From the sequence record MZ779063.1: a stretch of DNA of 64,000 nt, one strand, 5' to 3'. Of the stretch, positions 49,264 to 52,196 are shown one piece after another. A program made the translations under genes and the position numbers. This DNA is from Staphylococcus phage vB_SauM-UFV_DC4. Position 1 is the first letter of the stretch, and every line of letters starts with the position of its first letter. Below the pieces are notes generated by a model. That model saw nothing but the letters and a program-made list of their open reading frames with translations, had not been told where the DNA came from and made no database searches.

Positions 49264-50886
49264 TTGGGTAATTATTTAAGAAAAATTACGAAGAATATAC
49301 AAGATGAGGTCAGTACAAAAGAGTCATTTAATGAGGATGTAATATACTTTAGGGAGAATGAAAACCTAGAAGATATTATATCTGATATTTACAAATCAGT
49401 AGAATTTATTAAAGGCGTAAAATTCATTGATTGTAAAGTTGTTCCTCCAAGTGAAGTTTATGAGTACAATCAAATGACAGACAAACAATTTAAAGCAAGA
49501 GATTTTAGAAAAATCAACGTAGAAGAATCAAAACTATTAGAAGTTCAAATTACTGTAGAATTTGAATCAGCTGAAGGGGAAAAAGAATTATACACACATA
49601 AATTAGATTTCCCTGAACTTATAGAAGGTCAGTATTATTATATTAATGATAATAAGTTCTTCCCTATCTTACAATTAGCTGATACTGAATTCTATAAACC
49701 TAAAGCAAGTACAGTAGTAATGAAAAACTTATTACAACCATTATCAGTAAATGGTTCTAAAAAAGATGAACTTATTGATGATGATAAGAAAATGCCTAAG
49801 AAGTTAAGAGGTAGAACATTATACTTAGAAGTATTTAATAAAAATAAACCTGTTCCAGCATTTTTATTCTTTATTGCTAAAATGGGTCTAGATGAAACAT
49901 TTGAATTCTTAGATATTAAAGAATATTGTGAATTAGTAGATACCAACGATGAAAAAGATGATAAACACTACTATTTTAGAATTAATAATAAAATAACTAT
50001 TCAAGTTGATAAAGAATGGTTAGATCAAGACGATAGATATAGAACTTCTATGGTCTTATGTATTAAAGATTTGTTTAAAGGTATGAGAGCAGGATTAGAT
50101 AAAGTATATGATAAAGAATTCTGGCTAAAAAATTTAGGATCTGTATTTAGTGGTTCTACTAACGTTGACACTAAAATTGAAAAAGCTAATTCTATGATTT
50201 TATCATTTGATAGAATTTTAGATAGTCGTACTAAAAATATTTCTAGATTAGATCCAGAAGATAAAGAATCAACTTATCATGTAGTTAAATACATGTTTAA
50301 AAACTTTGATAATCTTAATTTATTAGATAATACAGATTTAGCTAATAAACGTTTAAGAGTATTAGAATACTTAACTTATCCACTGAATAGAAAGAACTCT
50401 GATACATCTTATCGTATGATTAATTTCACAGATAAGAAACGTACAATTAAAAATCTTAAGGGATTATTCTCAGGTGTACCTCGTGATTTCTTATTAAAAA
50501 CTATAGGAACATCTGAAGGAATTAGATATTCCAATGCAGTTAATACAATTGACTTATTTACTAGAATTCTTAAAATGACTAAAGCAGGTCCACAAACTGC
50601 TGTTGATACTAGTAAACCATCTATTAGAACTATTAATATCAATAATACTTATTTCGGTAGAATTGATTTAATAGCAACATCTTCAAACAATCCAGGTATT
50701 ACACGTACATTAACACCATTCTGTGAGGTTAAAGATCCTGGTGAGAATGGTTCATTCTATTTTGAAAATAAACCTAACATCAGAGAAAATATTGACACAG
50801 ATAATTTAGATAAACTAGAGAAAGAATCTGAAGACAATGAAGTTGTATTAGATATTAAAGAAATTGTAGAAGAGGATGACGAATAA
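49264..50886 (+). CDS. multisubunit RNA polymerase beta subunit, N-terminal fragment (TTG start)
   Basis: [23 protein letters not shown] parallels beta [44 protein letters not shown] parallels [22 protein letters not shown]. Confidence 0.7.
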   Translation: [540 protein letters not shown]

Positions 50887-52196
50887 TGGCTAGATTTTTA
50901 CTTAAGAATAAAGACTTATCAAAATTACCAGTAGTAACAAATCATGAATCAATTGATAAGAAAGGTGATTTCACTGAAGACGGTATCTTCAGTGAGAAAA
51001 TCTTTGGACCTGATTCAGATGTAGATAATATTACAAATGAAGCTATAGTTTATTTAGGTAATAACTATATTATTACACCTTTAGGATATGACAGAATTAA
51101 AAAATTAATAGGTAGAAAAAGATTTGCTGAAATTATTAGTTCTGAAAAACCTATTGATGAAAATGGTAATGTAATTGAACCAGAAGATGACCATAATTCA
51201 TATATTGGTTTAGTTGAATTTAGAAAGAACTTCTTAAAGATTCTTAAAGAAGAAGTTAAACGTGATAAACGTAAAACTAAAGATTACAATAGAGTTGTTC
51301 AATGGTATTTAAATGGAACATTATTCCAAAATTATGTAACTGTATTTAGTCCTAAATTAAGACCGGCTACAGTTAATAAAGCAACTAAGACATTTAGACA
51401 TTCAGAAATTAATAAAGAATTTAATTTATTAATTGCTCATAGTAATAGTCTTAAAGAATTAGATGAACATTATACAGATGATTCAGTTGAACTACAAAAG
51501 TTAAACCTACTTAATAAAATTCAAGATGACAACATGAATATCTATGATCGTATTATCAATGAAAACATTAAAGGTAAAATGGGTACTATTCGTAAATTAA
51601 TTATGGGTAGTCGTGTAGGATATTCAGCTCGTTCAGTAATTGTTCCAGCTCCTGATTTAAAATTAAATGAAATTAGAATGAATTATACAATCTTCTTAGA
51701 AATATACAAACCACTATTAGCTAATTTAATGTATGTAACGGAAAATATTCCATTACCTAAAGCAGAAGAAATATTAGGTAGAGCTTTAGATAACTTTAAT
51801 CCTAAAGTATATAAATATATGAAAGAATTAGTTAACAAAACTGAAGGTGGAATGAGAGTAATTTTGAACCGAAATCCATCTATCTCAGAATCATCAGTTC
51901 AAATATTAAAAATTAAAGATATCATTAGTGATATTGACTCAGCTGTAGTAGGTATTAGTAATAATATACTTGCAGGTATGGGTGCTGACTATGATGGAGA
52001 CACATTGAATATTATAGCTCTCTTCTCAGAAGAGCAATATGATATGTTAAAAGTACAAGATCCAGTCAATCAATTAATATCATATAATGATGGTCTATTT
52101 AATAGAACTTATTCACTTAATAAAGACTCACAGATTGCAGTTTATTTATTAAATAATCCTAAATCAAAAGATGTAAGTATAAAAGCTAGTAAATAG
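50886..52196 (+). CDS. multisubunit RNA polymerase beta' subunit, N-terminal fragment
   Basis: [11 protein letters not shown] parallels [37 protein letters not shown] parallels [31 protein letters not shown] parallels VLLNRAPTL; catalytic [10 protein letters not shown] parallels NADFDGDQM. Confidence 0.85.
   Translation: [436 protein letters not shown]

What the first reader, a model, noticed from the sequence alone, without database searches (positions are those of the whole stretch)
49264..52196. Split multisubunit RNA polymerase genes (beta-N and beta'-N adjacent; beta-C 13 kb upstream)
Three ORFs carry unmistakable bacterial RNAP beta/beta' blocks. These include the catalytic DYDGD loop, the beta' N-terminal IFGP motif and GYSARSV, the beta GEME and RYGGKGV blocks, and the beta N-terminal ING..R....QL block. 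Each ORF covers only half a subunit. No zinc-ribbon N-terminus is present in the beta' fragment. Split beta/beta' genes scattered through the genome are the hallmark of phiKZ/AR9/PBS1-like jumbo phages, which carry their own virion and non-virion RNAPs and are independent of host RNAP. The beta-N/beta'-N pair is preceded by a long non-coding region carrying a sigma-A-like promoter. The beta-C gene carries the conserved phage leader.
Basis: partly seen in the sequence, partly recalled or inferred. Interest (0 to 1): 0.6.

Follow-up and report, generated by a model that had tools for sequence, protein, structure and literature searches.

The report
Split phage RNA polymerase genes (known)

Summary
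Confirmed and ordinary. [quoted passage not shown] It is about 96% identical to phages S6 and PALS_2 overall and 99.5-99.8% identical over the flagged genes.

ORF 49264-50886 is the N-terminal half of the beta subunit of the non-virion RNA polymerase (nvRNAP), homologous to AR9 gp105. ORF 50886-52196 is the beta' N-terminal part (AR9 gp270), with IFGP, GYSARSV and the catalytic DYDGD and no cysteine at all. ORF 34110-36251 is the beta C-terminal half (AR9 gp089), with RYGGKGV and GEME. All three match chains of the solved AR9 nvRNAP along their full length (E 3e-73, 4e-69, 8e-143) and are under strong purifying selection.

The missing beta'-C and the sigma-like fifth subunit lie outside the window in close relatives and in the published DC4 gene table.

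- The window holds a fourth RNAP gene, the virion-RNAP beta-C (17393-19426).
- The "long non-coding region" contains a minus-strand HU-like gene, so only 191 bp are intergenic.
- The "conserved leader" is the AR9-type early promoter AAATATATATTAT-N6-G plus a 5' hairpin.
- The promoter before beta-N is a conserved but non-canonical TATGATATAAT block. Which polymerase uses it is unresolved.

The parts
49264..50886 (+). Non-virion RNAP beta subunit, N-terminal half (AR9 gp105 homolog; UFVDC4_00178). TTG start; contains [12 protein letters not shown] at aa 127-138.
   Evidence: PDB 7s00_c matches at E 3e-73 over aa 18-518. phrog_2943 matches at 3e-41. MarsHill_001 is annotated as non-virion RNAP beta. 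dN/dS is 0.04-0.11 against SA1, AH12, PB50 and LY01. AR9 R363, a residue of the -10U pocket, is conserved as R384.
50886..52196 (+). Non-virion RNAP beta' subunit, N-terminal part (AR9 gp270 homolog; UFVDC4_00179). Catalytic DYDGD at aa 368-372 (nt 51987-52001); IFGP at aa 39; GYSARSV at aa 245; no Cys. Start overlaps the beta-N stop (TAATG).
   Evidence: Pfam RNA_pol_Rpb1_2 matches at 3e-10. PDB 7s00_d matches at E 4e-69, and bacterial beta' residues about 229-477 align. Motifs were verified. dN/dS is 0.05.
34110..36251 (+). Non-virion RNAP beta subunit, C-terminal half (AR9 gp089 homolog; UFVDC4_00159). RYGGKGV at aa 370; GEME at aa 586. Intron-free here, whereas MarsHill carries two insertions.
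   Evidence: Pfam RNA_pol_Rpb2_6 matches at 2e-9 and phrog_3295 at 2e-104. PDB 7s00_C matches at E 8e-143 and phiKZ gp71 (7ogp_C) at 6e-21.
34027..34073 (+). AR9-type early (virion-RNAP) promoter AAATATATATTAT-aagatt-G(+1 at 34046), followed by a 5'-terminal leader hairpin (34046-34073). It lies 64 nt upstream of the beta-C ATG.
   Evidence: Motif and hairpin were found. The AR9 consensus AAATATATATTAT-(6N)-G+1 is from PMC5312081. TATATTAT is reported upstream of 29 MarsHill genes.
49135..49172 (+). Near-invariant promoter-like block TAGCtTTTTTCTAAaTTTTATGATATAATAtTGTTATG upstream of beta-N/beta'-N. It contains the extended -10 TATGATATAAT (49153-49163). It has 4 mismatches to the 13-mer early consensus but keeps the G at the +1 position (49172). 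Read on the minus strand it gives AACAATATTATA, the AR9 late-promoter consensus, facing the HU-like gene.
   Evidence: The block is conserved in 6 staphylococcal jumbo phages. The syntenic AR9 region carries the canonical early promoter P104.
17393..19426 (+). Only aa 437-668 resemble beta (E. coli beta about 1156-1315, including SNME for GEME). The N-terminal 430 aa are clade-specific and carry CxxC-x12-CxxC.
   Evidence: phrog_3233 matches at 6e-36. MarsHill_230 is annotated 'viral RNA polymerase beta subunit'. Coverage by AR9 and by phiR1-37 g203 (a structural protein) is. A 677-aa UFVDC4_00134 was detected in DC4 virions by LC-MS; equating it with this ORF is my inference.
17348..17359 (+). 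AACAACCAAATA, a match to the AR9 late (nvRNAP) promoter consensus AACA-N6-TA, 34 nt upstream of the virion RNAP beta-C start. This evidence is weak.
   Evidence: The match is conserved in MarsHill. The motif is not enriched in intergenic DNA overall.
48770..49072 (-). HU/IHF-family DNA-binding protein gene, divergent from beta-N. It is context and not part of the RNAP.
   Evidence: Pfam Bac_DNA_binding matches at 4e-9. MarsHill_270 has the same annotation. AR9 has the same divergent arrangement.

Best explanation
The flagged ORFs encode two of the five polypeptides of an AR9-type non-virion multisubunit RNA polymerase (nvRNAP) of a staphylococcal jumbo phage. That phage is vB_SauM-UFV_DC4, in the S6/PALS_2/MarsHill group. 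The two are beta-N (49264-50886) and beta'-N (50886-52196), which appear translationally coupled. The ORF 13 kb upstream (34110-36251) is beta-C of the same enzyme.

Inferred from AR9: beta-N, beta-C, beta'-N and beta'-C assemble without alpha or omega subunits into a catalytic core. Its Mg-binding DYDGD loop sits at the C-terminal end of beta'-N. A fifth, sigma-like gp226 homolog confers promoter specificity for late promoters of the AACA-N6-TA/G type, read on the template strand of uracil-containing DNA.

The nvRNAP genes are early genes. Beta-C carries a canonical early promoter for the injected virion RNAP. One subunit of that virion RNAP (beta-C, 17393-19426) is also encoded in the window, behind a late-type motif.

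Shown here: homology, subunit boundaries, motifs, purifying selection, promoter motifs, and the location of the remaining subunits in relatives. Inferred: assembly, temporal programme, uracil specificity and independence from host RNAP.
For: Homology and boundaries:
- Each ORF gives a full-length match to a separate chain of the solved AR9 nvRNAP (7S00/7S01/7UM0/7UM1), at E 3e-73, 4e-69 and 8e-143.
- Pfam Rpb1_2 and Rpb2_6 domains are present, and PHROG RNAP families match.
- The motifs were verified.

Orthology to the non-virion set:
- The only AR9 locus hit by beta'-N is gp270 at 226384-227445, not the virion beta'-N at 118211-123163.
- MarsHill annotates the three genes as non-virion RNAP beta, beta' and beta.

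Selection and completeness:
- dN/dS is 0.04-0.11.
- The beta'-C homolog lies at PALS_2 211650-213398 and MarsHill 133787-135535.
- The gp226 homolog lies at S6 130989-132287.
- The DC4 Table 2 gene coordinates equal the window coordinates plus 128000, and the table lists the further RNAP genes.

Promoters and literature:
- The early-promoter consensus plus hairpin sits upstream of beta-C (PMC5312081).
- Literature on AR9 nvRNAP composition and mechanism: PMC9209446 and PMC7598289.
- Korn et al. state that all ten virion and non-virion RNAP genes are present in MarsHill-like phages.
Against: - No biochemical or transcriptomic data exist for this phage. Assembly, uracil dependence and host-RNAP independence are extrapolated from AR9, whose subunits are only 33-39% identical.
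- Of the AR9 beta-N residues that form the -10U pocket, R363 is conserved. K375 and N382 are not aligned to identical residues.
- The beta-N/beta'-N operon lacks the canonical early promoter found before beta-C and before AR9 beta-N. It carries a different conserved block instead, so its temporal class is not established.
- Beta-N cannot be linked directly to bacterial beta by sequence.
Confidence: 0.93

Rival explanations
1. The beta-N/beta'-N operon is transcribed by host sigma-A RNA polymerase from the conserved extended -10 promoter TATGATATAAT. On this reading, synthesis of the phage nvRNAP depends partly on the host enzyme.
For: - A perfect Gram-positive TRTGnTATAAT element lies at 49153-49163, about 100 nt upstream of the TTG start.
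- The block is invariant in six staphylococcal jumbo phages even though the flanking DNA diverges.
- The canonical early promoter is absent here.
- AR9 virion RNAP is reported to be highly sensitive to single deviations from its consensus (PMC5312081).
- The review notes that host transcription of some AR9 genes cannot be excluded (PMC7598289).
Against: - The pattern occurs at chance frequency in this AT-rich DNA: 2 found against 2.7 expected. Sigma-70-like sites number 29 against 27.5 expected.
- The -35 hexamer is poor (TAGCTT).
- The DNA of this phage group is presumed to contain uracil.
- In AR9 the syntenic intergenic region carries an experimentally validated virion-RNAP early promoter, and beta-N is an early gene independent of protein synthesis.
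- The block keeps TATA(A/T)TAT-N6-G spacing, so it could be a variant early promoter.
- The conservation could instead serve the minus-strand AACAATATTATA late-type motif facing the HU-like gene.
Confidence: 0.15
2. The ORFs are not separate subunit genes. They are exons or fragments of larger genes, broken by introns, frameshifts or assembly errors, or they are decaying copies of host rpoB/rpoC.
For: - Related phages carry group I introns and homing endonucleases in these very genes. MarsHill beta-C is annotated as a four-piece join. Beta'-N is interrupted in Machias, AH12, PB50 and LY01.
- One automated annotation calls the AH12 gene 'bifunctional beta-beta''.
Against: - ORF ends coincide with the ends of the separately expressed and crystallised AR9 polypeptides.
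- The neighbour of beta-N is beta'-N, a different subunit, and not beta-C.
- The same boundaries are annotated in MarsHill, SA1 and DC4.
- Rfam finds no intron in the window, and the DC4 authors report the same.
- dN/dS of 0.04-0.11 excludes pseudogenes.
- The 24% GC content and 33-39% identity to AR9, against hits to bacterial subunits that reach only E 1e-8 to 1e-14, exclude recent host capture.
Confidence: 0.02
3. The three ORFs belong to the virion-packaged RNAP set rather than the non-virion set.
For: Jumbo phages of this group carry two paralogous sets. Generic annotations such as 'RNAP beta subunit' do not tell them apart.
Against: - Their best and only AR9 counterparts are the nvRNAP subunits gp105, gp270 and gp089.
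- The DC4 virion proteome detected UFVDC4_00067 and the 677-aa UFVDC4_00134 but none of these three.
- The virion beta-C paralog is a different ORF in the same window.
- Beta-C has an early promoter, as expected for nvRNAP genes.
Confidence: 0.03

Closest known systems
Bacillus phage AR9 / PBS1 non-virion RNA polymerase (gp105 beta-N, gp089 beta-C, gp270 beta'-N, gp154 beta'-C, gp226 specificity subunit; PDB 7S00, 7S01, 7UM0, 7UM1)
   Same: - The four-way split of beta and beta' uses the same boundaries.
- The catalytic loop reads DYDGD, not NADFDGD.
- The beta' zinc-binding N-terminus is absent.
- A gp226 homolog is present in the genome of close relatives.
- The HU/IHF-like gene and beta-N are arranged divergently in both.
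- The early-promoter consensus is the same.
- Both groups are reported to have uracil DNA: phage S6 per PMC7598289, and MarsHill-like phages are presumed so.
   Different: - Identity is only 33-39%.
- Here beta-N and beta'-N are adjacent and overlap (TAATG), as in Listeria phage LPJP1. In AR9 they lie about 143 kb apart.
- AR9 has ugi between the promoter and beta-N.
- AR9 beta'-N is intron-split, whereas this one is intact.
- The promoter before beta-N is non-canonical here.
Staphylococcus jumbo phages vB_SauM-UFV_DC4, PALS_2, S6, MarsHill and Madawaska (published genomes)
   Same: - The window's gene coordinates equal the DC4 Table 2 coordinates minus 128000.
- PALS_2 beta'-N is 100% identical at the protein level and S6 is 99.8% identical at the DNA level over the finding.
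- MarsHill annotates the genes explicitly as non-virion RNAP beta and beta'.
   Different: - Nothing substantive differs.
- Relative to MarsHill the window lacks introns in nvRNAP beta-C, virion-RNAP beta-C and gyrB.
- DC4, S6 and PALS_2 annotations are less specific, using 'hypothetical protein', 'beta subunit' or 'delta subunit'.
Pseudomonas phage phiKZ non-virion RNAP (gp55, gp68, gp71-73, gp74, gp123; PDB 7OGP)
   Same: Same enzyme class, and a split beta. Beta-C matches phiKZ gp71 at E 6e-21.
   Different: - The relationship is much more distant.
- phiKZ has thymine DNA and a phage nucleus.
- Its late promoter is different (TATG).
- Beta-N homologs are detectable only in the AR9/phiR1-37/Listeria/Staphylococcus clade, in 20 records.
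Bacterial RNAP beta/beta' (rpoB/rpoC)
   Same: The double-psi beta-barrel catalytic core motifs are shared: DxDGD, GYSARSV-like, KGV and GEME. Pfam Rpb1_2 and Rpb2_6 match.
   Different: - Each subunit is split in two.
- No alpha or omega subunits are used (literature).
- The beta' Zn-ribbon cysteines are absent (0 Cys).
- Beta-N is not recognisable by sequence.
- The gene order is beta-C ... beta-N, beta'-N rather than rpoB-rpoC.

Membership tests
AR9-type jumbo-phage non-virion multisubunit RNAP | Beta and beta' homologs are each encoded as separate N- and C-terminal polypeptides with the AR9 boundaries. | tested here: met
   End-to-end matches to 7s00 chains c, d and C. The bacterial subunits are covered only in part. 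Beta'-C is a separate gene elsewhere in relatives.
AR9-type jumbo-phage non-virion multisubunit RNAP | Catalytic Asp triad (DxDGD) near the C-terminus of beta'-N, and conserved beta-C active-site blocks. | tested here: met
   DYDGD at aa 368-372 of 436. RYGGKGV and GEME in beta-C. AR9 has 370-DYDGD-374 (PMC9209446).
AR9-type jumbo-phage non-virion multisubunit RNAP | Orthology to the non-virion set rather than the virion set. | tested here: met
   Beta'-N has a single AR9 hit, at gp270. Beta-N hits gp105 and beta-C hits gp089. The virion beta-C paralog is a distinct ORF. The three proteins are absent from the DC4 virion proteome list.
AR9-type jumbo-phage non-virion multisubunit RNAP | A fifth, sigma-like promoter-specificity subunit (gp226 homolog) is present in the genome. 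| tested here: met
   tblastn of AR9 gp226 gives 30% identity at E 3e-36 in S6, PALS_2 and MarsHill, where it is annotated as the specificity subunit. It is not in this window. The 212-aa ORF next to the primase gene is unrelated. The match was found in near-identical relatives, not in the window itself.
AR9-type jumbo-phage non-virion multisubunit RNAP | Recognises AACA-N6-TA/G late promoters on the template strand and requires uracil at -11/-10. | not testable with these tools
   Indirect evidence only. R363 of the AR9 beta-N -10U pocket is conserved as R384, while K375 and N382 are not strictly conserved. A late-type motif lies upstream of the virion-RNAP beta-C gene. In vitro transcription is needed.
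AR9-type jumbo-phage non-virion multisubunit RNAP | Genes are expressed early from virion-RNAP promoters (AAATATATATTAT-N6-G). | tested here: inconclusive
   Met for beta-C, with a zero-mismatch site at 34027. Not met for beta-N/beta'-N, whose upstream block has 4 mismatches to the 13-mer.
Bacterial-type beta' with N-terminal zinc-binding element | Four Cys ligands following the IFGP motif. | tested here: not met
   The 436-aa beta'-N contains no cysteine.

The most novel reading that the evidence does not exclude
In the staphylococcal AR9-like phages, the beta-N/beta'-N operon has swapped the ancestral virion-RNAP early promoter (kept in AR9 at the syntenic site) for an invariant 38-bp block. 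That block could be a host sigma-A extended -10 promoter. Alternatively it could be a bidirectional element: a variant early promoter on the plus strand overlapping an nvRNAP late promoter (AACAATATTATA) for the divergent HU-like gene. Either case would mean a regulatory coupling, or a host dependence, of nvRNAP synthesis that has not been described for this phage group.
Probability: 0.15. Interest if true: 0.4.

Novelty: already known. Interest (0 to 1): 0.12.

Why it matters
It matters little as a discovery. Split virion and non-virion multisubunit RNAPs are an established hallmark of phiKZ/AR9-like jumbo phages, and the AR9 nvRNAP structure is solved. This exact genome (vB_SauM-UFV_DC4) and its relatives are published with these genes annotated.

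The check still yields some useful annotation:
- It assigns the DC4, S6 and PALS_2 'hypothetical', 'beta' and 'delta' genes to specific nvRNAP and virion-RNAP subunits.
- It identifies the DC4 677-aa 'hypothetical virion structural protein' as the virion-RNAP beta-C fragment.
- It shows that the phage's early promoters match the AR9 consensus and are followed by 5'-terminal hairpins.
- It flags one oddity for anyone studying transcription in staphylococcal jumbo phages: a conserved non-canonical promoter block before beta-N/beta'-N.

Tried and rejected
- Pfam on beta-N found no family at E<=1. phmmer of full beta-N and of its C-terminal 141 aa against the PDB found only AR9 gp105 and no bacterial beta. 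A direct link from beta-N to bacterial beta by sequence could therefore not be shown.
- I tested whether the 212-aa ORF 52259-52897 is a gp226 homolog, because it sits next to the primase gene where AR9 has gp226. It shows no similarity (Pfam).
- I searched the window for beta'-C with AR9 gp154 by tblastn and found nothing.
- I scored the beta-N upstream site with a position weight matrix (PWM) built from 15 early-promoter sites. It scores -9.5 against 23-34 for true sites, so it is not a canonical early promoter. The PWM is overfitted because its sites were selected on an exact core. I therefore repeated the test as a mismatch scan, with the same result.
- I counted TATATTAT, TRTGnTATAAT, sigma-70-like sites and AACA-N6-TA/G. 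None is enriched over chance or over coding DNA in this AT-rich window. Bare motif presence is therefore not evidence. Only position, extended context and cross-phage conservation count.
- The hairpin downstream of the beta-N promoter block has a 3' arm that is not conserved in AH12 and PB50, so I dropped it.
- Rfam at gathering thresholds and tRNA scans of the window found nothing.
- I did not run structure prediction or the large homology searches, because a solved homologous structure already answers the question.
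Full report
**Observation**

The window is very AT-rich (20-27% GC) and almost all genes are on the plus strand. At the stated coordinates there are two ORFs:
- 49264-50886 (540 aa, TTG start)
- 50886-52196 (436 aa)

They overlap by one base, TAATG.

- The second ORF has IFGP (aa 39), GYSARSV (aa 245) and DYDGD (aa 368), and contains no cysteine at all. 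The zinc-binding element that follows IFGP in bacterial beta' is therefore absent.
- ORF 34110-36251 (713 aa) ends 13.0 kb upstream. It has RYGGKGV (aa 370) and GEME (aa 586).
- The beta-N block is degenerate. It reads [12 protein letters not shown], not ING..R....QL.

**Identity of the three ORFs**

Pfam recognises the second ORF as RNA_pol_Rpb1_2 (3e-10) and the upstream ORF as RNA_pol_Rpb2_6 (2e-9). It recognises nothing in the first ORF. PHROGs place all three in phage RNAP families.

The decisive result comes from the solved structures. Each ORF matches one separate chain of the Bacillus phage AR9 non-virion RNAP (7S00/7S01/7UM0/7UM1) along essentially its whole length:

| ORF | AR9 subunit | E-value | Query aa | Chain residues |
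|---|---|---|---|---|
| 49264-50886 | beta-N gp105 | 3e-73 | 18-518 | 13-493 of 496 |
| 50886-52196 | beta'-N gp270 | 4e-69 | 21-424 | 46-448 of 448 |
| 34110-36251 | beta-C gp089 | 8e-143 | 13-669 | 10-656 of 665 |

Matches to bacterial subunits cover only part of each subunit. Beta'-N residues 153-399 align to E. coli beta' 229-477. Beta-C aligns to Taq beta 542-713 and to E. coli beta 1050-1312. So each ORF really is a partial subunit, and the boundaries are those of the AR9 polypeptides.

Beta-N cannot be tied to bacterial beta by sequence alone. Its assignment rests on AR9 gp105.

All three belong to the non-virion set:
- Beta'-N hits AR9 only at gp270, not at the virion beta'-N.
- MarsHill annotates the orthologs as non-virion RNAP beta, beta' and beta.

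The genes are under strong purifying selection, with dN/dS of 0.04-0.11 against SA1, AH12, PB50 and LY01.

**Source of the window**

Megablast shows 99.8% identity to Staphylococcus phage S6 and 99.5% to PALS_2 over the finding. Over 50 kb the identity is about 96%, with indels.

The gene table of vB_SauM-UFV_DC4 (PMC10638138) lists these genes at exactly the window coordinates plus 128000:
- gyrB 133435-135717
- gyrA 141522-145076
- RNAP beta 162110-164251
- ligase 169875-171863
- RNAP beta 177264-178886
- RNAP beta' 178886-180196
- primase 180916-181968

The window is therefore DC4 128001-192000, a published genome in which these genes are already annotated as RNAP subunits.

Korn et al. (bioRxiv 10.1101/2020.12.14.422802) describe the full inventory for the MarsHill group. 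It comprises five virion and five non-virion RNAP genes. They even opened their genome records immediately upstream of the beta-N/beta'-N pair.

**The other halves**

- AR9 beta'-C (gp154) finds a 34%-identical homolog in PALS_2 (211650-213398), about 131 kb from beta-N. It finds another in MarsHill (133787-135535). Nothing is found in the window.
- The DC4 paper equates PALS2_228 with UFVDC4_00049 (42399-44312).
- AR9 gp226, the sigma-like specificity subunit, has homologs in all staphylococcal jumbo phages, for example S6 130989-132287. This also lies outside the window.
- The 212-aa ORF beside the primase gene is not related to gp226.

ORF 17393-19426 (677 aa) is a fourth RNAP gene.
- Its residues 437-668 match phrog_3233 (RNAP beta, 6e-36), the AR9 virion beta-C and the phiR1-37 structural protein g203. 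They also match E. coli beta 1156-1315 weakly.
- MarsHill annotates it as virion RNAP beta.
- A 677-aa 'hypothetical virion structural protein', UFVDC4_00134, was detected in DC4 virions by LC-MS. Equating it with this ORF is my inference from gene order and length.
- Its N-terminal 430 aa are specific to the Staphylococcus (and partly Listeria) clade. They carry CxxC-x12-CxxC and gave no hit to the HD domain described for the Bacillus phages.
- A late-type motif, AACAACCAAATA, lies 34 nt upstream of its start and is conserved in MarsHill. The motif is not enriched in the window, so this is weak evidence.

**Promoters and the 'leader'**

Fifteen intergenic plus-strand sites share TAAaTATATATTAT-AAnnnT-G. 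This is the experimentally defined AR9 early (virion-RNAP) promoter AAATATATATTAT-(6N)-G+1 (PMC5312081). Korn et al. report the TATATTAT motif upstream of 29 MarsHill genes.

In 13 of the 15 sites a stable hairpin begins at or within two bases of the predicted +1 G, with z between -2.3 and -8.4.

One zero-mismatch site (34027-34046) lies 64 nt upstream of the beta-C ATG. It fits the AR9 rule that nvRNAP genes are early genes.

The region upstream of beta-N is not long non-coding DNA. It holds a bidirectional terminator (48731-48763) and a minus-strand HU-family gene (48770-49072). Only 191 bp are intergenic. AR9 has the same divergent arrangement of IHF/HU-like gene and beta-N, with the validated early promoter P104 and ugi in between.

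In the window this spacer lacks a canonical early promoter. It contains a block, TAGCtTTTTTCTAAaTTTTATGATATAATAtTGTTATG, that is nearly invariant in six staphylococcal jumbo phages. The block can be read in three ways:
Such patterns occur at chance frequency in this DNA, and the -35 hexamer is poor.
- It keeps TATAaTAT-N6-G spacing, with 4 mismatches to the 13-mer early consensus.
- On the minus strand it reads AACAATATTATA, the AR9 late consensus, facing the HU-like gene. The same 12-mer precedes ORF 12147.

Which polymerase uses this block cannot be decided computationally. By synteny and by the AR9 programme, a variant early promoter is the most likely reading. Host transcription remains a minority possibility.

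**Gene order**

The adjacency of beta-N and beta'-N is shared with Listeria phage LPJP1. It is not shared with AR9 (83 kb against 226 kb) or with phiR1-37. The order beta-C ... beta-N is conserved in LPJP1 and AR9.

Relative to MarsHill, the window lacks the following insertions:
- two insertions in nvRNAP beta-C
- the 1.3-kb insertion carrying a homing-endonuclease gene (annotated in MarsHill as an intron) in virion-RNAP beta-C
- a 153-bp insertion in gyrB

Rfam finds no introns in the window.

**Verdict**

This is a textbook feature of a published phage, so the novelty is 'already known' and the interest is low. The only loose end is the conserved non-canonical promoter block in front of the beta-N/beta'-N operon.

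Noticed in passing
window 1609, 7749, 9714, 19428, 20220, 34027, 36886, 46177, 47921, 53971, 56023, 56328, 57362, 58062, 62025 (+ strand): Fifteen intergenic copies of the AR9-type early promoter AAATATATATTAT-N6-G. In 13 of them a strong hairpin starts at or within two bases of the predicted +1 G, for example GAGGUAAUGAC...GUCAUUACCUC at -19 kcal/mol, with z down to -8. The word 'hairpin' does not occur in the AR9 transcriptome paper. Such hairpins could stabilise early mRNAs or mark them for the virion RNAP.
   Followed up: partly
window 49111-49119 / 49141-49149: A conserved inverted repeat, TTTAGAAAA-N21-TTTTCTAAA, lies just upstream of the TATGATATAAT block in the HU-like/beta-N divergent spacer. 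It is conserved in all six staphylococcal jumbo phages aligned and could be an operator.
   Followed up: no
window 17393-18700 (N-terminal 430 aa of ORF 17393-19426): The virion-RNAP beta-C fragment has a clade-specific N-terminal extension with CxxC-x12-CxxC (C8, C11, C24, C27). The Bacillus phage orthologs are reported to carry an HD phosphohydrolase domain in this position. No Pfam domain was found.
   Followed up: partly
window 13522-17076: The DNA gyrase A gene carries an intein with a LAGLIDADG homing-endonuclease domain (Pfam Intein_splicing, LAGLIDADG_3). This is already reported for MarsHill and DC4.
   Followed up: yes
window 6951, 19129/19130, 35203-35225, 35864: These are the sites where MarsHill carries insertions that this phage lacks. 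They are a 153-bp insertion in gyrB, a 1.3-kb insertion carrying a homing-endonuclease gene (annotated in MarsHill as an intron) in virion-RNAP beta-C, and insertions of about 340 bp and about 175 bp in nvRNAP beta-C. They mark presence/absence polymorphism of mobile elements in the RNAP genes.
   Followed up: partly
window 52259-52897: A 212-aa Lys/Glu-rich ORF lies between beta'-N and the primase gene. AR9 has the sigma-like gp226 next to its primase gene. The ORF shows no similarity to gp226 and only a marginal HTH_38 hit (E 0.08). Its function is unknown.
   Followed up: partly
window 48003-48386: A lipoprotein-signal ORF matches Pfam Phage_VG64 (3e-48). It lies immediately downstream of an early promoter with hairpin at 47921.
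   Followed up: no
window 36911-38857 and 40198-41367: Two large ORFs (648 aa and 389 aa) downstream of nvRNAP beta-C have no Pfam or PHROG match. The first is preceded by an early promoter whose predicted +1 (36905) lies only 6 nt before the listed ATG, so the true start codon probably lies further downstream.
   Followed up: no
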